The notes under the pieces: model-generated
Seen by the model: the letters and a program-made list of their open reading frames with translations, nothing else
What the model was told of the DNA's origin: nothing
Database searches by the model: none
In this document: piece by piece, positions 1 through 50,343 of the stretch
Numbering within the stretch: the stretch's first letter is position 1
Layout: every line of letters begins with the position of its first letter
Source of the DNA: Escherichia phage vB_Eco_mar001J1
Sequence record: NC_048204.1
Length of the DNA: 50,343 nt
Reading direction: 5' to 3' (one strand)
Made by a program: the position numbers and the translations under genes

Positions 1-127
1 AAAATTATGTCCAGCAAGTTTTTAGTAGTTCGCGTATATAATCATGACAACGAATCTTCTTCTGAAATCCCGACAATTTATGACAGGGATTTTGGATGGA
101 GTGAGCAATCGGCTGTTGAAAATGAGC
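1..127. repeat. Terminal direct duplication: 1-127 is identical to 50217-50343 (circular permutation or assembly overlap)
   Basis: Exact match of window start and end read directly from the sequence. Confidence 0.9.
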
Positions 128-3626: not shown

Positions 3627-3670
3627 ATTATGCCCGACACTAGGCCGGGCGTTTTAACAAAAAGTGCTAT
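3627..3670 (-). promoter_or_regulatory. Cassette promoter candidate: 20-mer ATAGCACTTTTTGTTAAAAC + 18 bp (GC hairpin) + CATAAT
   Basis: Motif overlaps stop of 3670..3927; 22 bp from TTGTTA to the hexamer; almost identical to inverted copy at 50143-50186. Confidence 0.55.
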
Positions 3671-4697: not shown

Positions 4698-4741
4698 ATT
4701 ATGGCGCAATCCATCGCGCCAGTTTTAACAAAAAGTGCTAT
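4698..4741 (-). promoter_or_regulatory. Cassette promoter candidate (20-mer, hairpin GGCGCGATGGATTGCGCC, CATAAT)
   Basis: Same geometry as other copies; overlaps stop of 4738..5157. Confidence 0.55.
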
Positions 4742-5157: not shown

Positions 5158-7154
5158 TAAACAAACTCCCGTTTTGCAATGTTATCCTCACCTTTGCCGT
5201 TTTTGCGATGCGTTACGCGTACAGGAGGCATGATGTGATGAGCGTATGACATTATTTTACGCGCATTTCTATAGCTCGCCACCATACCAGCAATCTTGCG
5301 ATCCGGTATGTGCTGCAATGCTATTTTTCTCCATATCGTCCGGCAAATGTTGCTTTCTGACTCAGGGAAAAATCTTTCGTATGCCTTGAATGTGTCGCCG
5401 TTGGCCTCAAGCTCATAGCAAAAAACAATTCCTTTCTGGTTTTTCGTCATATCAACGCGGAAAGATTTAACGTTGCACCAATCGTTTTTGGTGTAGTGCT
5501 TGCCGCTTAACTTCTCGTTAGGATCGACAAGAGAAATATCGCAACAACGGCATACTCTCGCCACTACGTCGTTTTTTGTTCCGCAACCGCGCTTGATTAT
5601 CTTTTTCGTTCTCGGATCTACATGGTCCTCGCAAATTCTGTAAGTCCAAAAATGCTCGCATCTCTTTCCGTTATCGTCTACGTGCATACATCGGCGAGCG
5701 TAAAAGCTGTTTAGCGTTCCACATATCGGGCAAGTCTTAGGCTCTTTCCCGTTTGTAAATCTCTTTTGAAATTGCGCTTGCTCAAGAATTGGATCGAAAT
5801 ACAAATCCCCTAACTCATCCATAGTACCTGCAAAATCCAATACAAGATGATCTTTTTTCTTGAATCCCTGCTCAATGTGCCATTGCTTAAGCAGTCGCAT
5901 ACCGCGCCCCAAAAGCTGGATAAGCAATGTTAGAGATCCTATCTTTCTCAGTATTACCGAAGTATCCCAAAACGGAACGTTAACGCCAGTGGTAAGCGCC
6001 TGTACCTGGAAGATGTATTTTACTTTTCCCTCGTATGCCTCCCTCAGCCACTCTTTACGCTGATTGTCTCCAGTCTTGCCAGTTATGATCCTGTATTCGA
6101 CGCCTGGCGGAAGTGCGGCGGCGGCCTCCTTGCAGTGTCTTTCCCCTGCGCATGTAACTAAAACTCCGTTCCTGTCTTTGCATATCTCATGGACTTTAGC
6201 CATGATTTTCTGTGTCATTGTTGCGTCTTGATGGATCTTTTCTTCCATCTTGCGCAATGTTTTAGCGTCAAAGTCTGAAACGCCATCCTCGCTACTTGCT
6301 TCGAACTCTGAAAGGTCATACCCCAGGTCGCCTACGTCGCCGAAATTTGTTGGCACTACAGAACCGAATTTGATTAAGTAGTTTGTGTCTATGTTAGTCA
6401 CCTGCTCACGCCAGAATCCCTTTTTGTTCTTATCTTCAACCAGTATTGGAACCACGCCGCGAAACTCAGATCCAGTCATACCGAATATTCGCAATTCGTG
6501 CCCGTATGCCTCGCGACACCTGCGCATCATTTCCATGATTATTACGGTGTACTGTGTGCGCCCTGTTCCGAACATTGGATCGCCATTGGAATCAAATTGC
6601 TGTTCTTCTCCAATCAGTACAGGCAAATCCTTCTTAGTGGTCATCTGCTGGTAAGATTCATTATTTTCTATCGCATCAGCGAGATCCTCCCAATCCACCT
6701 GGTGACATTCATCAATACCGATAACGTGCGGAACATAATCACCTAACGACTTAAACAATCCGTTTACTACAGTGCCCTCAGAACCGACTACGATCGGAAA
6801 GTATGCGCTTTTTGTTTTCAGTCCGGCGCAATAGATTGAGTTTGGCACGCCAAGATTGCTGATCTCTTCCGAATCCTGATCAACAATTTCAGCCTGGCGA
6901 GCAAGGACCATCATTTTCAATCCCATTTTGCGGCATTGCGCAGCAACCATCGCAAACATCAAAGTTTTGCCAGCCGACACAGAAGCCTTAACGAAGAAAG
7001 GATGCTCATATTTTTTCATGCGCTTTGCGATCTCGGCATACGCAACGCACTGATAAGGATAAGGCACTATATTGCCAACCGTGAATCGCTCTTGGATGCT
7101 TTTTATTACTGCCTCGCCTAACGCTGATATTTGTTTTTCGATATTTGGGATCAT
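5157..7154 (-). CDS. SF2 ATP-dependent DNA helicase with C-terminal zinc-ribbon region
   Basis: Walker A SVSAGKTLMFAMVAA, DECH box, C-terminal CPICG...CRCC cysteine cluster. Confidence 0.8.
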   Translation of the reverse strand: MIPNIEKQISALGEAVIKSIQERFTVGNIVPYPYQCVAYAEIAKRMKKYEHPFFVKASVSAGKTLMFAMVAAQCRKMGLKMMVLARQAEIVDQDSEEISNLGVPNSIYCAGLKTKSAYFPIVVGSEGTVVNGLFKSLGDYVPHVIGIDECHQVDWEDLADAIENNESYQQMTTKKDLPVLIGEEQQFDSNGDPMFGTGRTQYTVIIMEMMRRCREAYGHELRIFGMTGSEFRGVVPILVEDKNKKGFWREQVTNIDTNYLIKFGSVVPTNFGDVGDLGYDLSEFEASSEDGVSDFDAKTLRKMEEKIHQDATMTQKIMAKVHEICKDRNGVLVTCAGERHCKEAAAALPPGVEYRIITGKTGDNQRKEWLREAYEGKVKYIFQVQALTTGVNVPFWDTSVILRKIGSLTLLIQLLGRGMRLLKQWHIEQGFKKKDHLVLDFAGTMDELGDLYFDPILEQAQFQKRFTNGKEPKTCPICGTLNSFYARRCMHVDDNGKRCEHFWTYRICEDHVDPRTKKIIKRGCGTKNDVVARVCRCCDISLVDPNEKLSGKHYTKNDWCNVKSFRVDMTKNQKGIVFCYELEANGDTFKAYERFFPESESNICRTIWRKIALQHIPDRKIAGMVASYRNARKIMSYAHHIMPPVRVTHRKNGKGEDNIAKREFV

Positions 7155-7186
7155 CTTAAACCTTTAAAAAATGCCATTTAGAGTAT

Positions 7187-7230
7187 ATAATAGACTCATT
7201 ACAATAAACTGTTTTAACAAAAAATGCTAT
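7187..7230 (-). promoter_or_regulatory. Cassette promoter candidate upstream of helicase gene (20-mer + 18 bp + TATTAT)
   Basis: ATAGCATTTTTTGTTAAAAC on coding strand, 22 bp from TTGTTA to TATTAT; divergent region also holds a plus-strand TATAAT at 7186-7191. Confidence 0.5.
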
Positions 7231-7241
7231 GAGGTGACTAG

Positions 7242-7718
7242 ATGAAAGATGCACGAATTGCAGTGTCTACGGGTGAGATCGACAAGCGCACTATTAACGG
7301 TAACAACGGAACGCGACGAGGTAAAGACAAAAAGCCACGAAAACACCGAACCGGATTTCTTATCCTGCGAGATGAGGTAAAAGCAAGCCTGAAATCTCGC
7401 CTTGACATTCTGATCGAGTATTACGGCGGTGTTCCTGCTATGGCTCGACGTCTACGCGTATCTCAGCAAGTCGTTAACCAGTGGCGAAAGCGTGGCATGA
7501 TTTCAGCCGCTGGAGCACAAAAGGTGCATAACGACTACAAATATAATGGGTGCAAAGGATACCGCGCATCATTTTGTCGTCCAGATCTGCGGTTTGATTC
7601 TAACGGCAAGCCTCTTACTACCCGTTGCGACAAATACGAAATGTTGCGCGTAGTCAAAAATTCAGACTACGAACCAGGCGGACGATTCTACAAAGGTGAT
7701 AACAGCACGAATAGCTAA
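7242..7718 (+). CDS. Cro/YdaS-family helix-turn-helix DNA-binding protein
   Basis: YGGVPAMARRLRVSQQVVNQWRKRGMIS segment; GAGGTGA RBS. Confidence 0.55.
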   Translation: MKDARIAVSTGEIDKRTINGNNGTRRGKDKKPRKHRTGFLILRDEVKASLKSRLDILIEYYGGVPAMARRLRVSQQVVNQWRKRGMISAAGAQKVHNDYKYNGCKGYRASFCRPDLRFDSNGKPLTTRCDKYEMLRVVKNSDYEPGGRFYKGDNSTNS

Positions 7719-7773: not shown

Positions 7774-8703
7774 ATGAATACTGAAAACTTTATGACCTAT
7801 CAGAAAGAAGATGTTTTGCCATATATGAAGGGGTTATGGCGTGAAGCACTACAAAGCATTTGCGGGCTGCATAGCGATGTTTTCAACAAAAAGCATCAGC
7901 CTTGCCCACACTGCGGCGGTAAGGATCGTTTTAGGTGGACTGATAAGCTAAATGAAGAGGGCGACGGCGGCGCTATCTGCAACGTGTGCGGTAACGACAC
8001 GGGGATCGGTTGGTTAATGAAATTAACTGGCGAACCTTACAGCGAGTCCATCAACATTTTGGGCCGCTTCCTCGGAAAAGTTCCACAGGATTACAGGATC
8101 AGAGCAAACAAACGCGCTTCACGTTCTTCTGGCTACTCGTTCGGGAAACAGGCAAGTCATGAATGCTGCGAAAAAGTGATGGCAAAAACATTAAAATTCG
8201 ATCGCACACCTTTAAGCGTTTTTGAGGGGATATATCCGCCGGAAGGTTGTCATTATGATTGCGGCGTCAATGATGGTCGATACATTCACGCGCTACCTTG
8301 TCACCTGGTGCATGATGACGGGCTTGATGATGAAATGTGTAACGTGCTTTTCATTGATGAGGATGGAAAGGATTGGTTTTTAGCTCGCGACTACACGCGC
8401 GGATCTGTTGTTAAAACAGGTAGCACAGATAAGACGATCTATTTGTGCCTTGATTGGGTTGATTCCCAGCATGTTCATTTATCAACTGGTCAAGAAGTGT
8501 GGGCTTGCTTTACTCCTTCAAATCTTGAAATGGTTGCGCATAGATATAAAGGAGAAAGAAGAATGCGCGTAATCTGCCGGAAAGATGATCGTGATGTGAT
8601 AATCGCGGCAGAGGAAAGAGGTCTTGACATAATGATGCCTGTTAACGATAATTTTAAACAGGGCGTAGAAAGAAAACTCTACAAGCCCGAATCACTGCTA
8701 TAA
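7774..8703 (+). CDS. Primase-like protein with zinc-binding motif
   Basis: CPHCGGKDRFRW...CNVCGN zinc finger; lies next to helicase in the replication region; start at Met27 after terminator. Confidence 0.5.
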   Translation: MNTENFMTYQKEDVLPYMKGLWREALQSICGLHSDVFNKKHQPCPHCGGKDRFRWTDKLNEEGDGGAICNVCGNDTGIGWLMKLTGEPYSESINILGRFLGKVPQDYRIRANKRASRSSGYSFGKQASHECCEKVMAKTLKFDRTPLSVFEGIYPPEGCHYDCGVNDGRYIHALPCHLVHDDGLDDEMCNVLFIDEDGKDWFLARDYTRGSVVKTGSTDKTIYLCLDWVDSQHVHLSTGQEVWACFTPSNLEMVAHRYKGERRMRVICRKDDRDVIIAAEERGLDIMMPVNDNFKQGVERKLYKPESLL

Positions 8704-12670: not shown

Positions 12671-13726
12671 TCATAGATACTGCCTGAATTGAGCGCGCAC
12701 CCAATCAGGAGTATCAAGATCAATTTCTGGTTGCCCGTTTGCATACGAAGGCCATTCATCTAACTGTTGGCAAACGTTGAACTTGTTGATCACGCTCATG
12801 TACTGGATGCGCCCGATCTTCAATTGCTCAATGTTCATGCGGAATGCGAGCGGCAAGTAAGGCTCTTTCTTCTCTTGAGCAAGCAATCTCACAATTACTG
12901 GCCTTTCCTCGTCTGGATACGCCTTTTTGAATAAATCATGCTGCAAAGCCATTTTGAGATAATAGCCGTGATTGTAAGCCAGGCGCTGGAAGTCAACCGG
13001 ATTTGCGCTAACCGTTGTTTTATAGTCAGTGATAATCACAGCTTCTGGATAGATGACTTCTTCATAAATCGGTCTGCCTTTTTCGTCGTAACCGTTAATG
13101 ATTGTGGCCTTTACATCCTTGTTTACGTCAACGTGATCAAGGCGCACTTTAACTTTTACGCCATTGATGATCCCGAATATTGACATTTCACGCTGCGCGG
13201 TTGGGCTATTCATGCAAGCATTATGCTCAGGTATTGCCTCAAGTACGCGCCGCATCGCTACACAGGCATCGTAATCTTTCGCGTCGATTAACTGCACTCC
13301 GTCCGCTGCGGCCTGGCATTCTGCCATCATTTCGATAAGCCACCATACATTGAGATCCTCACCGCACTTGTACAGCATTTCCAGCAATTCAGGGTACTGC
13401 TTACCAGTCGTACCTTTCAGGCCAAAAGATTTCAGCTTTGAGGCCAACGCCGTTTGACTTGTGATCAGATCTTTAAAGTCATCCTGCGACGGTGCGCGGC
13501 GATATGTTTTTTCGAATAACTCCTTGCTTTCAAAATTGGTATGCGACTGCGTACCGAAAACAAGTGCCTTAGTTTCCTGGCGAGGCTTGTACTTCCAGTA
13601 CGCCGGGCAAGTGCTGTAAATCTCCGCCAAGCTGGAACCGCTGACGTATTCAGCCGTCCACGCGTTAGGATCATGATAAAGCTCATTGCTCATTTCTTCG
13701 CTAGTGTAGGCGTTAAAATCACTCAT
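12671..13726 (-). CDS. PD-(D/E)XK recombination exonuclease (RecB/Cas4-like fold)
   Basis: ITDYKTT and QRLAYNHGYYLK motifs; AAGGAG RBS. Confidence 0.65.
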   Translation of the reverse strand: MSDFNAYTSEEMSNELYHDPNAWTAEYVSGSSLAEIYSTCPAYWKYKPRQETKALVFGTQSHTNFESKELFEKTYRRAPSQDDFKDLITSQTALASKLKSFGLKGTTGKQYPELLEMLYKCGEDLNVWWLIEMMAECQAAADGVQLIDAKDYDACVAMRRVLEAIPEHNACMNSPTAQREMSIFGIINGVKVKVRLDHVDVNKDVKATIINGYDEKGRPIYEEVIYPEAVIITDYKTTVSANPVDFQRLAYNHGYYLKMALQHDLFKKAYPDEERPVIVRLLAQEKKEPYLPLAFRMNIEQLKIGRIQYMSVINKFNVCQQLDEWPSYANGQPEIDLDTPDWVRAQFRQYL

Positions 13727-13756
13727 CTTTGATGCTCCTTGTTGCTTTGTGTGTGC

Positions 13757-13784
13757 ATTGTAGCCATTTGGTTGATTTAGTCAA
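13757..13784 (-). promoter_or_regulatory. Sigma70-type promoter for the exo-erf-ssb operon (TTGACT, 16-bp spacer, TACAAT)
   Basis: Near-consensus hexamers read on minus strand about 30 bp upstream of exonuclease ATG. Confidence 0.55.
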
Positions 13785-14070
13785 TAGTTGTTTTGTTTTT
13801 TCTGTTTTCTAAACGTTCTTAGATTGCAAGAAAACAAATTTGAAACGTAAGTCAATGATTAATATGTGTTATTTTTCTTGCTCCCTTGTTCTCTCAGATA
13901 CGCCGGATTATATACATACACATGAATGATGGCACATACAGATGCTCATAAAGAAAATCACCACAAACAACCAAAACCACAAGAAACACAGATAACAAGA
14001 AAAAACAAATATACATACATAAATAAATAAACTATTGATTTTATATGTATATATCTATTTTATTGATTGC
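13757..14070. repeat. Divergent control region A, homologous to 42893-43200
   Basis: Shared blocks in the same order: AGCYATTTGGT..GTCAAT, CGCCGGA..TATATACATA, CAACCA..AACA..TAAATAAATAA..TTTTAT. Confidence 0.6.
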
Positions 14071-14152
14071 TTATTGCCCTTATTTTGGCTAAAATTTGCG
14101 CTAAATTTACGCCGTCTTAAATTCGATAACACCGAAAAACAAAAAATAACAA

Positions 14153-14195
14153 GTAGCACTTTTTGCTAAACGCCGCTTGTCGGATCGTGTATAGT
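14153..14195 (+). promoter_or_regulatory. Cassette promoter variant (TAGCACTTTTTGCTAAAC, TATAGT)
   Basis: One-base shorter A-run; TATAGT 21 bp after TTGCTA; upstream of lipoprotein gene. Confidence 0.45.
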
Positions 14196-14226
14196 TACAG
14201 GCAACGACAACTAAGGAGTATTGAAG

Positions 14227-14496
14227 ATGAAAAAATTAATCGCAGTTATCGCCACCGTAGCCGCTCTGACCGGGTGCGCAGCGTCTCCTACTGGCAACTT
14301 CAATGAGATCGACTGCACGGCAAAATTTAACGTTAAAACATTCCCTGTTAACGGATTCCATGAAGTTAAAATTAATGCAGTACGCGAAAACAGATTCAGC
14401 CAAAAGCAATACAGGTTGAGCGTTGACAATAAAGAAGTTAAATTTATCAACCGTTGGCAAAATGAAAGTAAATTTATTGATTTGAGGTGTAATTAA
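14227..14496 (+). CDS. Small lipoprotein, candidate Cor/Llp-type superinfection-exclusion protein
   Basis: Signal peptide with lipobox ALTGC; AAGGAG RBS; locus is convergent with tail gene J. Confidence 0.5.
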   Translation: MKKLIAVIATVAALTGCAASPTGNFNEIDCTAKFNVKTFPVNGFHEVKINAVRENRFSQKQYRLSVDNKEVKFINRWQNESKFIDLRCN

Positions 14497-25470: not shown

Positions 25471-25490
25471 ATAGCACTTTTTGTTAAAAG
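25471..25490 (+). repeat. Inverted cassette 20-mer immediately 5' of the chaperone G RBS
   Basis: ATAGCACTTTTTGTTAAAAG reads on plus strand while flanking genes are on minus; TAGATT lies 22 bp downstream on plus. Confidence 0.5.
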
Positions 25491-29219: not shown

Positions 29220-29247
29220 ATGATAGCACTTTTTGTTAAAGCGTCAA
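29220..29247 (-). promoter_or_regulatory. Sigma70-type promoter for capsid gene (TTGACG, 16-bp spacer, extended -10 TGcTATCAT)
   Basis: The spacer and extended -10 are the inverted cassette 20-mer (plus 29223-29241); 5'-UTR hairpin GGCCGTTAAATGTAACGGCC follows. Confidence 0.55.
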
Positions 29248-38836: not shown

Positions 38837-38880
38837 ACTTTATCAAATGCCCTTGCGGAAGTTTTAACAAAAAGTGCTAT
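38837..38880 (-). promoter_or_regulatory. Cassette promoter candidate (20-mer, hairpin, TAAAGT)
   Basis: Overlaps stop of 38880..39170; 22-bp spacing. Confidence 0.5.
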
Positions 38881-42096: not shown

Positions 42097-42140
42097 ATTA
42101 TGCCAGGCTTTGCGCCTGGCGTTTTAACAAAAAGTGCTAT
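42097..42140 (-). promoter_or_regulatory. Cassette promoter candidate (20-mer, hairpin CCAGGCGCAAAGCCTGG, CATAAT, TCGAAACGA leader)
   Basis: Consensus copy; overlaps stop of lipoprotein gene. Confidence 0.55.
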
Positions 42141-42397: not shown

Positions 42398-42861
42398 TAT
42401 TGCTCCTCCTCTTTGATGATTTCGCGGATCATATCCTGGTAGCGGCTTACGCCCTCACAAGCCCCAGCCAGCTTATCCCCTTCCAGGTCCACGATATTCG
42501 GGATTGTTGCCAGTAAGCGATCGGCAAGCTTTTTGATCGCCCTTGCCTTGATGGCTGGCAATTCTTCGGGCGTGATGATTTTCCTTTTCGATTCGCGGAC
42601 CATGCGGAAAACGTAAAATTTATCATCTTCCGTTTCCTCTACCTTGATGCTTACCCGACCTGCGGCCCTTACTTCTGGAACGCGGTTGATAATGGTCCGG
42701 CTGTAGGATGAACTGCGCGTGATCTTGTAACAGTCGTCACCGCTTAACATTCCGGCCAGGTCAATTAGTGACATTTTATACTCTTCAATATCGCCACTGG
42801 CCAGGCGGCGACCAAGCTCGCGAAGCCAATCGCAATAGTCCTTAGTGGTCTTCTGTTCCAT
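42397..42861 (-). CDS. Hypothetical protein (154 aa), first gene of the leftward early operon
   Basis: Start at MEQKTTKDY with GGAGG RBS; consensus promoter upstream. Confidence 0.55.
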   Translation of the reverse strand: MEQKTTKDYCDWLRELGRRLASGDIEEYKMSLIDLAGMLSGDDCYKITRSSSYSRTIINRVPEVRAAGRVSIKVEETEDDKFYVFRMVRESKRKIITPEELPAIKARAIKKLADRLLATIPNIVDLEGDKLAGACEGVSRYQDMIREIIKEEEQ

Positions 42862-42892
42862 TTCCTTTCCTCCAGTTGTTGACTGTTGGCGC

Positions 42893-42920
42893 ATTATAAA
42901 AGCTATTTGGTGCGTGTCAA
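42893..42920 (-). promoter_or_regulatory. Consensus sigma70 promoter (TTGACA, 16-bp spacer, TATAAT) for the leftward early operon
   Basis: Both hexamers match consensus exactly, about 30 bp upstream of the 42861 start. Confidence 0.65.
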
Positions 42921-43200
42921 TGTTTTTGTTGTATTCAAAACGTTACCAATATCGAAAAACTACAAAATCATGCGCAAGTTGTTGATTTCAGGGCTGTTAT
43001 TTTTCTGTTCACGCTGTTAACGCAATCCGCCGGAAAAAGTATATATACATATGCAATCCGCCGCGCGCGCAACTATCCATATATGCCCACACACAACCAC
43101 ACCATAGCCAACAAAAAGCACTGTAACAGTGAGAACAAAAAGAAAACATTATAGATATATATAAATAAATAATCTTTATTTTCAATGTATTATAGAGGAT
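42893..43200. repeat. Divergent control region B, homologous to 13757-14070
   Basis: Same ordered blocks as region A, including the AT-rich TATAGATATATATAAATAAATAAT tract. Confidence 0.6.
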
Positions 43201-43408
43201 TTTCTTTGTTTTTTCCGTTTTCGCTACACCGGAAAACCGCGCGGAAACACGCCGCCTGAAATCGGTAACAGGGGTGAACAAAAGACAACAACCACTGACA
43301 GCCAGGCGGAAAAGTGAGGCAAGAGGGGAAGGTTTCACTATCTCCCCTGCAACCAATGATTAAGCGTGATTACTTTTCTCATCAAATTTGCAAAGGCAAT
43401 CATCATTT

Positions 43409-43448
43409 TGACGTGATTTGATTACGAATGATTACTTCTGATTATTTC
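43409..43448. repeat. Tandem 10-bp direct repeats TGATTAC(N3), iteron-like
   Basis: TGATTACGAA, TGATTACTTC, TGATTATTTC in register, partial copy upstream and another GTGATTAC at 43365. Confidence 0.5.
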
Positions 43449-43475
43449 GATCACAATCCTGGCGCTAACCGTCAA

Positions 43476-43519
43476 ATAGCACTTTTTGTTAAAACTCAGG
43501 CCGTCTGATCGGGTACATT
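43476..43519 (+). promoter_or_regulatory. Cassette promoter candidate for the rightward early operon (20-mer, TACATT, TCGAAACGAA leader)
   Basis: 22 bp between TTGTTA and TACATT. Confidence 0.55.
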
Positions 43520-43553
43520 ACACACATCGAAACGAACCGCTCAGGAGATAGCA

Positions 43554-43826
43554 ATGAACATCAGCAAAACCACTTTCAACTTCTCTAAGCGTCACGGTCT
43601 GGATCTGACTGTTGAAGATTTTGGCGATGTTCTGCAACTCTGCATTTGGGAAGCAGATAACGATTGCGAGTGGCTTTGCTCTTATCGTATCAACTACGAT
43701 TGCTTGACCTGGCACGGCAATATCTATCTGCCGCAAGAAGTGAAGGAAGAATTGCCAGCGACTATCAACAACGAGGTTTTCTTGCGTCAGGTGCTGAAAT
43801 TTATCAGTGAGGAGATCAAGAAGTAA
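43554..43826 (+). CDS. Hypothetical protein (90 aa)
   Basis: GGAG RBS. Confidence 0.55.
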   Translation: MNISKTTFNFSKRHGLDLTVEDFGDVLQLCIWEADNDCEWLCSYRINYDCLTWHGNIYLPQEVKEELPATINNEVFLRQVLKFISEEIKK

Positions 43827-44779: not shown

Positions 44780-44823
44780 ATAGCACTTTTTGTTAAAAAC
44801 GATGCGCTGCTGATTGTTATAGT
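44780..44823 (+). promoter_or_regulatory. Cassette promoter candidate (20-mer + TGtTATAGT)
   Basis: 22-bp spacing; the TATAGT has an upstream TG (extended -10). Confidence 0.5.
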
Positions 44824-46281: not shown

Positions 46282-46992
46282 ATGTATAAAGGTTTAATAT
46301 TCTCACTATTTGATGGATCTGGTAAGGCCGTTAAAGACTGGGCTGATAATGGCTATAAGTGCATTTGCTTTAATGCTGACGGTGGCGATCACGGTGATTA
46401 CCAGTCAGTGCGCATACAGCATGAGAATATCGAATACGTTAACGTCTGGATTGATGATGCTTTTTATGTTAAGGCAATCAATAATGAGTGGGGCAATCCT
46501 GATTTTATTATGGCCTTCCCACCATGCACCGACCTTGCAAATAGCGGATCTCGCCATTGGGCCAAAAAACGCCTTGAGAATCCATCGTTCCAGGATGAGG
46601 CCGCCGACACTTGCAGAATAGCGGCTGATATAGGTGATTATTTCGGTGTTCCTTACATGATCGAAAATCCGGTTGGCAAGTTGTCAACGTTATGGCGTAA
46701 GCCTAATTATACGTTCCATCCGTGCGATTACGCTGGCTATCTGCCGGAAGATGATAAACACCCCGACTTCCCTGATATTATTCCGGCGCGGGATCGCTAC
46801 TTTAAGAAAACGTGTCTCTGGACTGGCAACGGCTTTGTTATTCCTCCACGCGCTTTAATCCTGCCGAAAGAGGAAGACAAAGATAATCCAGGCTGGGCCA
46901 AAACTGGCGGCAAGTCATCGCGCACAAAGATGATCCGCTCCCTCACTCCGCGCGGCTTTGCTCGCGCCGTCTTTGAGTCAAACTCAAAATAG
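46282..46992 (+). CDS. DNA cytosine-C5 methyltransferase-like protein, unusually short with PCT in place of PCQ
   Basis: Motif I LFDGSG, motif IV AFPPCTDLA, motif VI ENPVGK; only 236 aa, no obvious target-recognition domain. Confidence 0.55.
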   Translation: MYKGLIFSLFDGSGKAVKDWADNGYKCICFNADGGDHGDYQSVRIQHENIEYVNVWIDDAFYVKAINNEWGNPDFIMAFPPCTDLANSGSRHWAKKRLENPSFQDEAADTCRIAADIGDYFGVPYMIENPVGKLSTLWRKPNYTFHPCDYAGYLPEDDKHPDFPDIIPARDRYFKKTCLWTGNGFVIPPRALILPKEEDKDNPGWAKTGGKSSRTKMIRSLTPRGFARAVFESNSK

Positions 46993-47032
46993 CACTTTTT
47001 GTTAAAAGCCAGGTGTAAAAACCTGGCATAAT
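46989..47032 (+). promoter_or_regulatory. Cassette promoter candidate (20-mer, hairpin CCAGGTGTAAAAACCTGG, CATAAT, CCGAAACGAAAGGAG leader)
   Basis: 22-bp spacing; overlaps TAG stop of the methyltransferase-like gene. Confidence 0.55.
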
Positions 47033-48052: not shown

Positions 48053-49633
48053 ATGTTTTCATTAGAAACGAACAAATTAACTCCACAGCAAATAATCGCT
48101 ATGGCTGAAAGCCAGAACCTTTCGCCAGTTCGCGTATCAATTCAGGCTAACGGCTATCGCCAGTCGTCAAGCTTTTGGGGCGACGTGAAGGATGTAAATA
48201 GCGGTCACGATCGCTACCCCGTAATTTCTCTTGGTAATGATATTGATGTTGTCGGCAAGTTATCACGCAGTATTGCGCGATCAGTTCAATTCCCTGAATC
48301 ATCGGCTTACATGCACTTTATCGGCTGCATTTCTGCCTCTATGCTTGGACGCTTTACAGTTGACTATCACGGAACCGATCAGCCGACTGCGCTTTACGTC
48401 GTTACAAGCCAGCCGCCGTCAACTGGTAAATCTGCGATCAACAGTATGGCTATTGCTCCGATGATTGCGGAAGTTGAGAAGATCAACGAGCAACGCCGCA
48501 AGGAAAGAAAGAAAATACAGGCAAAGTTGGCAGGTCTTGCAAAGGAGATGAAAAGCGAAAGATCAGGCGCTGATATGGAATCTCTATACCAGGAAAAAGA
48601 GGATCTGGAGGAGAAGCTGGAAAAGATGTGTGATATAACTTTCCCTGTTTCAGATACCACTCCAGAAGGATTGGCGAAAATCAACAACAAGCAAGGTAAC
48701 TTTGCCGTAATATCTGACGAAGCAACAAGTATTAACAGCCTGTTAGGCTTGACCTATGCCAATAGCGAAAGGAAGACTAACAGCGAGCTAGTGCTTAAGG
48801 CGTGGGATAATGGTCACGTATCAATTGCCCGTGCTAATGCTGACAATAACATGAGTTTTCGCGCGCTTGGATGTATGAGCGTTATAGCCCAGGATGAAAC
48901 GATAAGCGGAATCATGGACGCTGGATCGCGCGGTATCGGTGTGAGTGAGCGCTTTTTGTTGGTCCGCGAAGAATCATTCTTAGGCCGTCGCTCATTCATT
49001 GATGAAAATGGTGATTCTACCTATGAGGCGGTGGATTCTGAATTGAAAGCCCAATATTATCAATTGGTGCATAACATCATGAGCGAATCAAATATATCGC
49101 TGAAAATAAGCCGTTCAGCTATGCGAGTGCTCAACATTGCTCGTCAGGATATGGAACCGCATCTTGCAGACGGCGGAAAGTATTCTCATACAATGTTGCG
49201 CGGTGCGCTGGGTAAAATGGATAAACAGGTGATCAGGCTTGCTTCCGTCCTGCATGTTATCCGTAACTGGTTTAATCCTGCCGGATACCCGCAGAAGTCG
49301 AAAGAGATCGGCGTGGAAACAATGCAAGAGGCGTTGATAATGTTTCAGGAATTGAGCAAAACATACATTAGCGCCGCCAATGCTTCTGGTTATGCTGGTG
49401 ATGATGCTGAAATGGGTAAATTGATTGAATTGATCACGAGGCACGGCAAGGCTAACAAAGGGATCCTGAATATTCGCGCCCTGTACGAATCAGCGAGAAA
49501 GGTAAAACCTTTCGTTGGTCAGGCTGGCGTAATGAAGAGGATAGAAGGGCACTTGCTGCCAATGCTGGAAGAAAGAAATTATGTTTGTGTGATTAATGGT
49601 GTTATTTTTGTCAATCCAATACTGCTGGGATGA
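48053..49633 (+). CDS. P-loop NTPase of unknown role (possibly replication-associated)
   Basis: Walker A-like SQPPSTGKSA and Walker B-like AVISDEAT; 526 aa; central coiled-coil. Confidence 0.4.
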   Translation: MFSLETNKLTPQQIIAMAESQNLSPVRVSIQANGYRQSSSFWGDVKDVNSGHDRYPVISLGNDIDVVGKLSRSIARSVQFPESSAYMHFIGCISASMLGRFTVDYHGTDQPTALYVVTSQPPSTGKSAINSMAIAPMIAEVEKINEQRRKERKKIQAKLAGLAKEMKSERSGADMESLYQEKEDLEEKLEKMCDITFPVSDTTPEGLAKINNKQGNFAVISDEATSINSLLGLTYANSERKTNSELVLKAWDNGHVSIARANADNNMSFRALGCMSVIAQDETISGIMDAGSRGIGVSERFLLVREESFLGRRSFIDENGDSTYEAVDSELKAQYYQLVHNIMSESNISLKISRSAMRVLNIARQDMEPHLADGGKYSHTMLRGALGKMDKQVIRLASVLHVIRNWFNPAGYPQKSKEIGVETMQEALIMFQELSKTYISAANASGYAGDDAEMGKLIELITRHGKANKGILNIRALYESARKVKPFVGQAGVMKRIEGHLLPMLEERNYVCVINGVIFVNPILLG

Positions 49634-50186: not shown

Positions 50187-50343
50187 TGTTTCATCGAAAC
50201 GAAACAACCAAAAGGTAAAATTATGTCCAGCAAGTTTTTAGTAGTTCGCGTATATAATCATGACAACGAATCTTCTTCTGAAATCCCGACAATTTATGAC
50301 AGGGATTTTGGATGGAGTGAGCAATCGGCTGTTGAAAATGAGC

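What the first reader, a model, noticed from the sequence alone, without database searches (positions are those of the whole stretch)
13757..14070. Two homologous ~300-bp divergent control regions, each with a near-consensus sigma70 promoter
The two largest intergenic regions (13727-14226 and 42862-43553) share, in the same order and orientation, blocks AGCYATTTGGT..GTCAAT, TTTTCTGTT, CGCCGGA..TATATACATA and CAACCA..AACA..TAAATAAATAA..TTTTAT. Both separate a leftward minus-strand operon from a rightward plus-strand operon. The left block of each holds a promoter for the leftward operon: TTGACT-16-TACAAT at 13757-13784 and a perfect TTGACA-16-TATAAT at 42893-42920. The conserved AT-rich centre with alternating TA tracts may be a shared factor-binding or DNA-unwinding element, such as an origin, enhancer or nucleoid-protein site.
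Basis: seen in the sequence. Interest (0 to 1): 0.65.

Follow-up and report, generated by a model that had tools for sequence, protein, structure and literature searches.

The report
Paired origin-like control regions, T1-like phage
This T1-like coliphage has two related ~400-bp non-coding modules, each with phased short repeats around the genome's most easily melted DNA and an outward host-type promoter, which makes them the first concrete candidates for the unmapped replication origins of T1-like phages, though no experiment here shows replication.

Summary
The window is Escherichia phage vB_Eco_mar001J1 (Drexlerviridae, Warwickvirus). Its two largest intergenic regions, IG1 (13727-14226) and IG2 (42862-43553), share a colinear ~360-bp core (local alignment z about 35). 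Both leftward sigma-70 promoters are confirmed, and their TLS counterparts were already predicted in print.

The cores are more than AT-rich promoter spacers. Each holds helically phased triplets of a 5-8-bp box (D-AACA, best copies GTGAACA) in opposite orientations around a (TA)n centre. All four such triplets in the 50-kb genome lie in IG1 or IG2. The centres are the two least stable duplex segments of this genome, and likewise in T1 and TLS. Each core also has IHF-consensus sites and a second box (TACGCCGG) present twice. The box sequence differs between phage lineages at the same position, which points to a phage-encoded binder.

The design matches phage P4 ori/crr (GGTGAACA repeats). The phage primase is homologous to the P4 alpha primase domain, and its DUF3987 helicase has a predicted C-terminal winged helix.

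Best reading (about 0.45): two origin-type assembly sites that also sit in early-promoter regions. Main rival (about 0.3): purely transcriptional operator regions. The right-end similarity is a known genome-wide 21-nt repeat. IG2's extra insert aligns with the mapped pac end.

The parts
13757..13784 (-). P_L1, the leftward sigma-70 promoter (TTGACT-16-TACAAT) for the exoVIII-erf-ssb operon. The gene start is at 13726.
   Evidence: The homologous promoter P51 is predicted in TLS.
13788..13812 (-). T-rich TGTT boxes directly upstream of the P_L1 -35 element. On the promoter strand this reads GAAAACAGAAAAAACAAAACAA. It could serve as an UP-like element or as an operator array.
   Evidence: inverted repeats I4, I5, I9. 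T1 has ATTACAC/GATTACA boxes at the same place.
13848..13860 (-). IHF-consensus site with one mismatch (AATCATTGACTTA), at the position homologous to the perfect site in IG2.
   Evidence: Perfect matches occur at the same place in relatives (sequences).
13868..13892 (-). Left array of TGTT(A/C) boxes (TGTTATTTTTCTTGCTCCCTTGTTC).
   Evidence: I3.
13899..13925 (+). Box B copy 1 (TACGCCGGAT) followed by the first TA tract (TATATACATACA).
   Evidence: D3, D6; conserved columns.
13926..13983 (+). Strand-asymmetric A+C-rich tract made of AAA(T)CAC-type units. Its length varies between relatives.
13984..14007 (+). Central phased triplet AAACAC-AGATAACAA-GAAAAAACA, abutting the AT centre.
   Evidence: all 4 triplets in the genome lie in IG1 or IG2; shuffles give 0.03. 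Also (D1).
14008..14067 (.). AT/(TA)n centre. It ranks first or second among the least stable duplex segments of the genome, is flanked by 27-nt inverted arms, and contains a perfect IHF core at 14028-14040.
   Evidence: (I1).
14106..14122 (+). Box B copy 2 (TTTACGCCGTCT...).
   Evidence: D3.
14127..14151 (+). Right phased triplet TAACAC-CGAAAAACAA-AAAATAACA.
   Evidence: D1: 84% identical to the central array.
14153..14195 (+). P_R1, a copy of the genome-wide repeat (GTAGCACTTTTTGCTAAAC) followed by a -10-like TATAGT at 14190-14195. The cor-like lipoprotein gene starts at 14227.
   Evidence: The repeat is described in TLS.
42893..42920 (-). P_L2, a perfect TTGACA-16-TATAAT promoter for the leftward early genes (gp38 starts at 42861).
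   Evidence: The homologous promoter P01 is predicted in TLS.
42975..42987 (-). Perfect IHF core consensus (AATCAACAACTTG).
   Evidence: 7 perfect sites in the genome, 2 of them in the two intergenic regions.
42995..43019 (-). Left phased triplet (TGTTATTTTTCTGTTCACGCTGTTA).
   Evidence: D2.
43026..43053 (+). Box B copy 1 (TCCGCCGGAA) followed by the first TA tract (TATATATACATATG).
   Evidence: D4, D7.
43124..43148 (+). Central phased triplet TAACAG-TGAGAACAA-AAAGAAAACA.
   Evidence: D3.
43149..43213 (.). AT/(TA)n centre. It ranks first or second among the least stable duplex segments of the genome and is flanked by inverted arms 43131-43146 and 43200-43215.
   Evidence: (I2, I5). This is the part of the region most widely conserved across Drexlerviridae.
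43246..43291 (+). Box B copy 2 (ACACGCCGCCTG) and the right array (GTAACAGGGGTGAACAAAAGACAACA).
   Evidence: D3.
43292..43475 (.). IG2-only insert with GATTA(C/T) repeats at 43352-43447. It is not part of the shared core. It aligns with the point where the T1 and TLS GenBank records begin, which is the mapped pac end.
   Evidence: D1.
43476..43519 (+). P_R2, a copy of the genome-wide repeat (ATAGCACTTTTTGTTAAAA) followed by a -10-like TACATT at 43514-43519. gp39 starts at 43554.
48053..49633 (+). DUF3987 replicative helicase with a predicted C-terminal winged helix. It is the candidate box-binding initiator, by inference only.
   Evidence: (separate PHROG for residues 441-525).
7774..8703 (+). 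DNA primase homologous to the primase domain of P4 alpha.
   Evidence: E 4e-15 over alpha residues 20-263.

Best explanation
Each region is most likely a replication-origin-type assembly site sandwiched between outward-firing promoters. The genome carries two paralogous copies.

Proposed mechanism:
1. A phage-encoded DNA-binding protein binds the helically phased boxes (spacing 9-11 bp). These form oppositely oriented arrays on either side of the (TA)n centre and again next to each promoter. The best candidate binder is the winged-helix tail of the DUF3987 helicase.
2. Host IHF bends the DNA at its consensus sites.
3. The (TA)n centre melts. It is the least stable duplex in the genome.
4. The helicase is loaded, and the P4-alpha-type primase primes synthesis.
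5. Transcription leaving from P_L and P_R may help opening. The arrays that touch the promoters may feed back on early transcription.

Shown here: the homology, the promoters, the arrays and their confinement to the two regions, the stability minima, the IHF consensus matches, the lineage-specific box sequences, the primase homology and the winged-helix prediction.

Inferred: who binds the boxes, that unwinding and initiation happen here, and whether one or both copies are used.
For: 1. D-AACA triplets spaced 9-11 bp occur 4 times in 50 kb, all in IG1 or IG2. Shuffles give 0.03. T1 shows 4 of 4 with its own boxes.
2. An independent repeat finder recovers the array duplications (84% and 73% identity), box B present twice, and inverted arms bracketing each AT centre.
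3. The two AT centres are the two least stable 40- and 80-bp segments in this genome, in T1 and in TLS. They lie more than 4 sd from the mean and are clearly separated from the third-ranked site. ATATATA heptamers are nearly confined to the two regions: 18 of 20 in T1 and 9 of 13 in TLS.
4. In a 28-sequence alignment of both regions from 14 Tempevirinae genomes, the arrays, box B, the TA tracts and TTATATAG are the conserved islands, while the A/C tract varies in length.
5. The box differs by lineage at the same position next to the AT centre. It is G(A/G)AACA in Tempevirinae, GTTACAC/ATAGACA in T1-like phages, GATTACA in L033 and CGGAGGAT in L093/L094. These lineages include phages of the same host (T1, TLS and this phage all infect E. 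coli), so a phage protein is the likelier binder.
6. Perfect IHF cores lie at 42975-42987 and 14028-14040.
7. In Tlsvirus the IG1 equivalent has no rightward operon, yet it keeps the whole core including the right array.
8. P4's annotated ori and crr carry TGTTCACC (= GGTGAACA) repeats in arrays of 2-3 spaced 9-11 bp, in both orientations, next to AT-rich DNA. The window's primase is homologous to the P4 alpha primase domain.
9. The helicase C-terminus is predicted with pLDDT above 90 as a winged helix and forms a separate PHROG.
10. Two distant phages with a DUF3987 helicase (36-39% identity) have a 560-620-bp intergenic region just upstream of the helicase-exonuclease-SSB replication module (with a DnaG-type primase in L102 only). 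Each has its own boxes around a TA-rich segment, which in L101 is the clear stability minimum of the locus (4.8 sd); in L102 it only marginally tops four near-equal sites.
11. The (TA)n centre contains no TAnnnT hexamer, so it is not itself a sigma-70 -10 element (direct reading).
12. The published literature that could be searched states that the origin of T1-like phages is unknown and that no iterons were found.
Against: - There is no functional or marker-frequency evidence.
- The regions contain no DnaA boxes.
- The helicase and its winged helix show no detectable similarity to the P4 alpha helicase or origin-binding domain. The Foldseek matches are generic winged helices, none significant.
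- In Tempevirinae the boxes are A-rich and could partly reflect A-tract bending or UP elements.
- Arrays abut both promoters, as operators would.
- The comparable regions in L101 and L102 are also divergent promoter regions.
- GC skew follows gene orientation and cannot discriminate.
- The correlation between winged-helix sequence and box type is confounded with phylogeny.
- No clear concerted evolution of the two copies was seen.
Confidence: 0.45

Rival explanations
1. The regions are purely transcriptional control regions. The arrays are operators for a phage repressor or activator, with IHF-assisted looping. Their job is to switch the strong early host-type promoters (P_L1, P_L2) off, or the rightward promoters on, much like the Mu O1-O3/IHF region between Pe and Pc. 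On this reading the AT centre is curved or flexible upstream DNA and has no role in replication.
For: - The two leftward promoters are part of the conserved homology. P_L2 is the only perfect sigma-70 consensus in the genome.
- In TLS the only three confident sigma-70 promoters are the two homologues of P_L plus the promoter of the regulator-primase genes.
- Boxes lie directly upstream of the -35 of P_L and directly upstream of the P_R repeat.
- IHF sites lie between arrays.
- The phage encodes a Cro-like HTH regulator.
- The comparable regions in L101 and L102 are divergent promoter regions.
Against: - The central array and AT centre lie about 220-300 bp from P_L, far for direct sigma-70 control.
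- Tlsvirus keeps the right-hand arrays although there is no rightward operon to control.
- This reading does not explain why the centres are the genome-wide stability minima in three lineages, or why (TA)n is almost confined to them.
- A Cro-like dimer fits the dyad TAGCA-N5-TG(C/T)TA of the genome-wide repeat better than phased direct repeats (inference).
- The regulator's own promoter region (7130-7241) contains no D-AACA array.
Confidence: 0.3
2. The shared core serves DNA packaging, genome ends or recombination. It could be accessory sites for terminase, or a recombination hot spot for the exoVIII/Erf system, because IG2 adjoins the pac end and IG1 adjoins the recombination genes.
For: - The T1 and TLS records begin inside the IG2-specific insert, next to the core. 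The TLS pac end was mapped by restriction analysis, and T1 carries its 2.8-kb terminal repeat from that point.
- IHF sites are also typical of cos and pac regions (established knowledge).
- IG1 lies directly upstream of exoVIII.
Against: - The stretch that aligns with the record starts (43292-43475) is exactly the part that IG1 lacks.
- A second pac-like site 29 kb away is not expected from the reported pac-initiated headful packaging and submolar pac fragment.
- The insert carries its own, different repeats (GATTAC here, TATTCC/GGAATA in relatives).
Confidence: 0.07
3. The homology is a neutral remnant of a duplicated promoter cassette. The core as such has no function beyond the promoters, and its composition is merely AT-rich.
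For: The two copies are only about 60-65% identical. No concerted evolution is evident.
Against: - Both copies are retained in every lineage examined, with the same order of elements, although the sequence between elements has diverged and changed length.
- The arrays are statistically confined to the two regions.
- The box identity changes in a coordinated way in both copies within a lineage.
Confidence: 0.05
4. The cores encode small RNAs or small proteins.
For: Some GenBank records annotate hypothetical proteins inside the regions. Short ORFs exist there.
Against: - Rfam gives no hit at E up to 1 apart from a chance snoRNA match.
- The alignments show indels in the ORF-bearing A/C tract that do not preserve reading frame.
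- No conserved sigma-70 promoter or terminator pair lies inside the cores.
Confidence: 0.03

Closest known systems
Phage P4 bipartite origin (ori plus crr) with the alpha primase-helicase
   Same: - Two separate cis regions in one genome.
- Each carries 8-bp repeats (TGTTCACC = GGTGAACA) in arrays of 2-3 spaced 9-11 bp, in both orientations, next to AT-rich DNA.
- The best-conserved Tempevirinae boxes are GTGAACA/GGAACA.
- The phage primase is homologous to the alpha primase domain.
   Different: - P4 ori and crr share only the repeats and are not homologous over 360 bp. They lie 4.5 kb apart, against 29 kb here.
- Here the helicase is a separate DUF3987 protein with no detectable similarity to the alpha helicase or its origin-binding domain.
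- A second box (TACGCCGG), IHF sites and flanking promoters are part of the module.
- The function is untested.
Iteron-plus-DUE origins of helicase-type initiators (SaPI Rep/ori, lambda ori, iteron plasmids such as pSC101). Recalled from established knowledge, not tested here.
   Same: Short repeats flank or abut an AT-rich unwinding element. An IHF site is present. The initiator's repeats also occur at promoters, allowing autoregulation. Specificity differs between lineages.
   Different: There are no DnaA boxes. The repeats are very short (5-8 bp) and phased at one helical turn. There are two paralogous copies. The initiator is unidentified.
The 21-nt direct repeat aaATAGCACnnnTTGnTAAAA of TLS, T1, Rtp and Rogue1 (PMC11447400)
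   Same: The right-end blocks 14153-14171 and 43476-43494 are copies of it. [quoted passage not shown]
   Different: This repeat is genome-wide (21 hits). It is not what makes IG1 and IG2 special, and the shared 360-bp core lies outside it.
Mu early operator/IHF region between Pe and Pc. Recalled from established knowledge.
   Same: Divergent promoters, multiple short protein-binding boxes in both orientations, and an IHF site in between.
   Different: Mu has a single copy, no (TA)n stability minimum, and a known repressor. Here there are two copies, and the module persists without divergent genes in Tlsvirus.
Predicted sigma-70 promoters P01 and P51 of phage TLS (PMC11447400, Supplementary Table S1)
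   Same: They are the homologues of P_L2 and P_L1, with the same position and orientation relative to gp01 and recE.
   Different: They were published as isolated promoter predictions. Neither the homology of their upstream regions nor the arrays were described in the papers that could be read.

Membership tests
Iteron-type replication origin | Clustered, regularly spaced short repeats (iterons) | tested here: met
   Triplets spaced 9-11 bp occur 4 of 4 in IG1/IG2, against 0.03 in shuffles. The duplicated arrays are recovered by the repeat finder and are conserved in 28 sequences.
Iteron-type replication origin | Adjacent AT-rich DNA-unwinding element | tested here: met
   By nearest-neighbour stability only. 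The two centres are the two least stable segments of the window, T1 and TLS. Actual unwinding was not tested.
Iteron-type replication origin | Initiator protein that binds the repeats | not testable with these tools
   The candidate is the predicted winged helix at the helicase C-terminus. Lineage-specific boxes argue for a phage-encoded binder. No binding data exist.
Iteron-type replication origin | Replication initiates there, or the element confers autonomous or helper-dependent replication | not testable with these tools
   No marker-frequency, 2D-gel or plasmid data are available. The literature read states that the origin is unknown.
Iteron-type replication origin | Host-factor sites (IHF, DnaA) | tested here: inconclusive
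   Perfect IHF cores lie at 14028-14040 and 42975-42987, and one-mismatch sites at homologous positions. No DnaA box is present.
P4-type replicon (alpha protein with ori/crr) | Alpha-type primase | tested here: met
   BLASTP E 4e-15 over alpha residues 20-263; shared Zn_Ribbon_Prim domain.
P4-type replicon (alpha protein with ori/crr) | Alpha-type (D5/SF3) helicase with a C-terminal origin-binding domain | tested here: not met
   The helicase is DUF3987. It shows no similarity to alpha by BLASTP or by profile comparison with the alpha C-terminus. The element is therefore not filed as a P4-family member, only as similar in design.
P4-type replicon (alpha protein with ori/crr) | Type-1 repeats TGTTCACC in two separate cis regions | tested here: inconclusive
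   A similar core (GTGAACA/TGTTCAC), the same spacing and two regions are present. The boxes are shorter and more degenerate, and they differ in other Drexlerviridae lineages.
Sigma-70 divergent promoter region | -35 and -10 hexamers with 16-18 bp spacing upstream of the flanking gene | tested here: met
   P_L1 scores 10/12 and P_L2 12/12. The rightward side has only the non-canonical repeat-type promoter.
Sigma-70 divergent promoter region | Genes diverging on both sides | tested here: inconclusive
   True in this phage and in T1. Not true for the IG1 equivalent in Tlsvirus.
TLS-type 21-nt direct repeat | Match to aaATAGCACnnnTTGnTAAAA, oriented with transcription, about 75 nt before the start codon | tested here: met
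   14153-14171 has 2 mismatches and lies 74 nt before the ATG. 43476-43494 has 0 mismatches and lies 78 nt before the ATG.
pac site | Coincides with the mapped first packaging cut | tested here: not met
   For the shared core. The T1 and TLS record starts align to the IG2-only insert at about 43380-43410, not to the core, and IG1 lacks that insert.
Known non-coding RNA family | Rfam covariance-model match | tested here: not met
   No credible hit at E up to 1.

The most novel reading that the evidence does not exclude
The two modules together form a bipartite origin comparable to P4 ori plus crr. The initiator is the DUF3987 helicase itself, which would recognise lineage-specific 5-8-bp boxes through its C-terminal winged helix. 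This would define a widespread, so far uncharacterised helicase-initiator/origin system in T1-like and other phages. The same protein-DNA complexes would shut down the early host-type promoters, coupling the start of replication to the early-to-middle transcription switch.
Probability: 0.2. Interest if true: 0.75.

Novelty: new member of a known kind. Interest (0 to 1): 0.6.

Why it matters
T1 is one of the seven classical T phages and a notorious laboratory and fermentation contaminant. Neither its replication origin nor its initiator has been mapped. A 2024 re-annotation of TLS reports that no iterons were found, and lists the function of the intergenic repeats among the open questions for T1-like phages.

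This analysis gives two precise, conserved loci, a defined set of boxes that differ between lineages, and a candidate binding domain. That makes the question testable with simple experiments: coverage profiling, origin-plasmid assays, footprinting and box-swap specificity tests. The result also separates three layers previously seen as 'large intergenic regions': the origin-like core, the genome-wide promoter repeat, and the pac-end insert. If confirmed, it would assign a function to the DUF3987 helicase family's C-terminal domain. It would also supply parts for engineering or blocking T1-like phages.

Tried and rejected
- Rfam scans of both regions gave nothing credible.
- GC-skew profile: the cumulative minimum falls at IG2 but simply follows gene orientation, so it is not informative.
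- Concerted evolution of the two copies: paralogue similarity within a genome is not consistently higher than between genomes.
- P4 alpha against the helicase (BLASTP), and against the helicase profile: no similarity.
- PDB sequence searches with the helicase and the regulator gave only weak Cro-like hits for the regulator.
- Foldseek with the helicase C-terminus gave a generic winged helix with no specific relative.
- DnaA boxes: none in the regions.
- The gp38 protein as a handle to collect IG2 from relatives returned only 2 loci. The helicase was used instead.
- The correlation between winged-helix recognition-helix sequence and box type is confounded by phylogeny.
- Enterobacter phage N5822 (78 kb), examined as a possible outgroup, turned out to be a Drexlerviridae record, probably a concatemeric assembly.
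- Literature searches for T1 transcription start sites, P4 iterons and the Rtp genome paper found nothing usable.
- I looked by eye, and with the consensus scan, for a canonical sigma-70 promoter inside the AT centre. None was found, because (TA)n cannot give TAnnnT.
Full report
**Identity and setting.** The window is the complete genome of Escherichia phage vB_Eco_mar001J1 (NC_048206/LR027388; Drexlerviridae, Tempevirinae, Warwickvirus). It is rotated relative to the record, and a 127-bp assembly overlap is repeated at both ends.
- IG1, 13727-14226 (500 bp), lies between the leftward exonuclease VIII-Erf-SSB genes and a short rightward block of cor-like lipoprotein and outer-membrane protein genes.
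- IG2, 42862-43553 (692 bp), lies between the leftward early small genes, which run on to the terminase, and the rightward early genes, which run on to dcm and the DUF3987 helicase.

- The local alignment of IG1 against IG2 scores 72. Dinucleotide shuffles give 12.8 +/- 1.7 (maximum 20), and the opposite strand scores 27.
- The alignment is colinear over about 360 bp.
- Both leftward promoters are found by the consensus scan: TTGACT-16-TACAAT at 13784..13757 and TTGACA-16-TATAAT at 42920..42893. The second is the only perfect 12/12 match in the genome.
- Their TLS homologues, P51 and P01, are two of only three sigma-70 promoters accepted in the 2024 TLS re-annotation. The third drives the regulator-primase genes.

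**Three layers must be separated.**
- *Right-end blocks.* 14153-14171 and 43476-43494 are copies of the known 21-nt repeat aaATAGCACnnnTTGnTAAAA (PMC11447400). The window has 21 matches against 2.9 expected. Aligning the copies shows a -10-like hexamer 18-19 nt downstream, with a GC hairpin in the spacer in most copies though not in the two IG copies, so the repeat looks like a promoter module of non-canonical geometry. It is not specific to IG1 and IG2.
- *IG2-only insert.* IG2 contains about 180 bp that IG1 lacks (43292-43475), with GATTA(C/T) repeats. The T1 and TLS GenBank records both begin inside the homologous stretch. T1 carries its 2.8-kb terminal repeat from there. The TLS start was set from restriction mapping of the pac end, and another paper places pac in this untranslated region in T1-like phages. 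This insert is therefore the likely pac region and is not part of the shared element.
- *Shared core.* What remains is the core of about 360 bp together with the leftward promoter.

**Anatomy of the core.** In window orientation each region reads as follows:
1. P_L, reading leftward.
2. T-rich TGTT boxes touching the -35 element.
3. An IHF-consensus site (perfect at 42975-42987; one mismatch at 13848-13860).
4. A leftward-pointing array of TGTT(A/C) boxes.
5. Box B (TACGCCGGAT / TCCGCCGGAA).
6. A TA tract.
7. An A+C-rich, strand-asymmetric tract of variable length.
8. A rightward-pointing triplet of D-AACA boxes.
9. A (TA)n/AT centre.
10. T-rich TGTT boxes.
11. A second box B.
12. A second rightward triplet.
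13. The rightward repeat-type promoter (in IG2 the IG2-only insert, the likely pac region, lies between this triplet and the promoter).

The triplets D-AACA-N4-6-D-AACA-N4-6-D-AACA occur four times in the whole genome: 13984-14007, 14127-14151, 42995-43019 and 43124-43148. Sixty shuffles give a mean of 0.03. The repeat finder independently recovers several features:
- the central/right array duplication (84% and 73% identity);
- box B present twice;
- the TA tract present twice;
- inverted arms bracketing each AT centre (13996-14022/14039-14065 and 43131-43146/43200-43215).

**The AT centres are exceptional.** By nearest-neighbour free energy, the segments around 14023 and 43155 are the two least stable 40-bp and 80-bp windows of the genome. 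They lie more than 4 sd from the mean and are well separated from the third-ranked site. The same holds for the two homologous regions of T1 and of TLS. ATATATA heptamers are nearly confined to the two regions: 18 of 20 in T1, 9 of 13 in TLS and 6 of 13 here. Because (TA)n cannot provide a TAnnnT hexamer, the centre is not itself a sigma-70 -10 element.

**Conservation and lineage-specific boxes.** Both regions exist across Drexlerviridae. An alignment of 28 cores (both regions from 14 Tempevirinae genomes) shows conserved islands exactly at the arrays, box B, the TA tracts and TTATATAG. The A/C tract changes in length and sequence.

The box differs between lineages while its position next to the AT centre is kept:
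- G(A/G)AACA (best copies GTGAACA) in Tempevirinae;
- GTTACAC/ATAGACA in T1-like phages, where all four triplets in T1 again lie in its two regions;
- GATTACA in the lineage of L033;
- CGGAGGAT-type repeats (related to box B) in L093 and L094.

T1, TLS and the present phage all infect E. coli. A host protein is therefore an unlikely reader of these boxes, and a phage-encoded, co-evolving protein is the economical explanation. This is an inference. In Tlsvirus the IG1 equivalent has no rightward operon and abuts the terminator of the tail gene, yet it keeps the full core including the right-hand array. The core is therefore not simply the control region of a rightward promoter.

**Comparison with known systems.**
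- The annotated P4 genome shows the closest design. Two separate cis regions, ori and crr, carry TGTTCACC (= GGTGAACA) repeats in arrays of two or three at 9-11-bp spacing, in both orientations, beside AT-rich DNA.
- The window's primase is homologous to the primase domain of P4 alpha (E 4e-15).
- The replicative helicase is a separate DUF3987 protein with no detectable similarity to the alpha helicase or origin-binding domain. The element is therefore not a member of the P4 family. It only resembles P4 in design.
- The last ~55 residues of the helicase (about 472-526) are predicted with pLDDT above 90 as a winged helix, preceded by a long lower-confidence helix. Residues 441-525 match a separate PHROG, and structural matches are generic winged-helix domains, none significant.
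- The Cro-like regulator next to the primase fits the dyad TAGCA-N5-TG(C/T)TA of the genome-wide repeat better than phased direct repeats. Its own promoter region has no D-AACA array. This is also an inference.
- Two distant phages whose DUF3987 helicases are 36-39% identical have a 560-620-bp intergenic region one small gene upstream of a helicase-exonuclease-SSB module (L102 also carries a DnaG-type primase). Each has its own short boxes (G5/C5, or CTTACA/TGTAAG) around a TA-rich segment. In L101 that segment is the clear stability minimum of the locus (4.8 sd); in L102 it only marginally tops four near-equal sites.

**Interpretation.** The best-supported reading is that each region is an origin-type assembly site placed between outward promoters. 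It combines phased binding sites for a phage protein, in opposite orientation around the most easily melted DNA of the genome, with IHF sites, and it is linked to a P4-alpha-type primase and a helicase with a winged helix. I put this at about 0.45.

The main rival, at about 0.3, is that the arrays are operators that time the early promoters. This is supported by boxes that touch both promoters and by the published finding that the two leftward promoters are among the very few host-type promoters in TLS. The two readings are not exclusive, because origins are often embedded in promoter regions. Packaging or recombination roles, a neutral duplication, and small RNAs or peptides are less likely, for the reasons given under rivals.

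**Limits.** Nothing here demonstrates binding, unwinding or initiation. In Tempevirinae the boxes are A-rich and short. No DnaA box is present. GC skew is uninformative. The two copies show no clear concerted evolution. I could not read Roberts et al. 2004 (T1) or Wietzorrek et al. 2006 (Rtp). The statement that this architecture is undescribed therefore rests on three sources: the T1 record, which has no origin or repeat features in these regions, the TLS paper ('no such repeats ... anywhere else in the genome'), and the SU57 paper ('origin ... not found').

Noticed in passing
window, 21 sites (e.g. 3652-3670, 4723-4741, 38862-38880, 42122-42140, 44780-44798, 46989-47007): The known ATAGCAC-N3-TTGNTAAAA repeat is followed 18-19 nt later by a -10-like hexamer ((C/T)ATAAT, TATAGT or TACATT). 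The spacer is usually a GC-rich hairpin. TTG lies 22 nt from the -10, which is non-canonical, and the dyad TAGCA-N5-TG(C/T)TA is centred near -42. This looks like an activator- or UP-dependent promoter module, possibly read by the Cro-like regulator at 7242-7718.
   Followed up: partly
window 25471-25489 (+) and 29223-29241 (+): Two copies of the same repeat point against the direction of the surrounding late (minus-strand) genes. The TLS paper reports all copies as co-oriented with transcription.
   Followed up: no
window 43292-43475: This IG2-only insert has GATTA(C/T) repeats at 43352-43447. The T1 and TLS GenBank records begin inside the homologous stretch, so it is probably the pac region. 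Relatives carry TATTCC/GGAATA repeats there instead.
   Followed up: partly
window 1-127 and 50217-50343: The first and last 127 bases of the window are identical. This is an assembly overlap inherited from record NC_048206, not a biological terminal repeat.
   Followed up: yes
whole window; cores 13793-14152 and 42920-43291: The genome has 301 GATC sites, one per 167 bp, and the phage encodes Dam and Dcm methylases. None lies inside either 360-bp core. The only GATC sites in the two intergenic regions sit in the rightward promoter or pac parts (14183, 43449, 43507).
   Followed up: no
L101 9060-9680 and L102 9203-9759: Distant phages with a DUF3987 helicase (36-39% identity) have a large intergenic region one small gene upstream of a helicase-ResIII helicase-DUF3799 exonuclease module (a DnaG-type primase in L102 only, an SSB in L101 only). 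Each has its own short boxes (G5/C5, or CTTACA/TGTAAG) around a TA-rich centre. In L102 a (CAA)12 tract sits in the centre.
   Followed up: partly
window 7163-7191 (+): A TTTAAA-17-TATAAT promoter lies upstream of the regulator-primase genes. It is the homologue of TLS P57, the third of only three host-type promoters accepted in TLS. This suggests a cascade in which host RNA polymerase makes the regulator, which then turns on the repeat-type promoters.
   Followed up: no
loci L008/L090 (IMG/VR contig 3300045988_025133) compared with the window: This is a mosaic relative. Its exonuclease, helicase and IG1 are 98-100% identical to the window, but its IG2 core is only about 80% identical over about 110 nt. 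IG2 is exchanged or diverges much faster than IG1 across the family. IG2-IG2 scores between genera are often lower than IG1-IG2 scores.
   Followed up: partly
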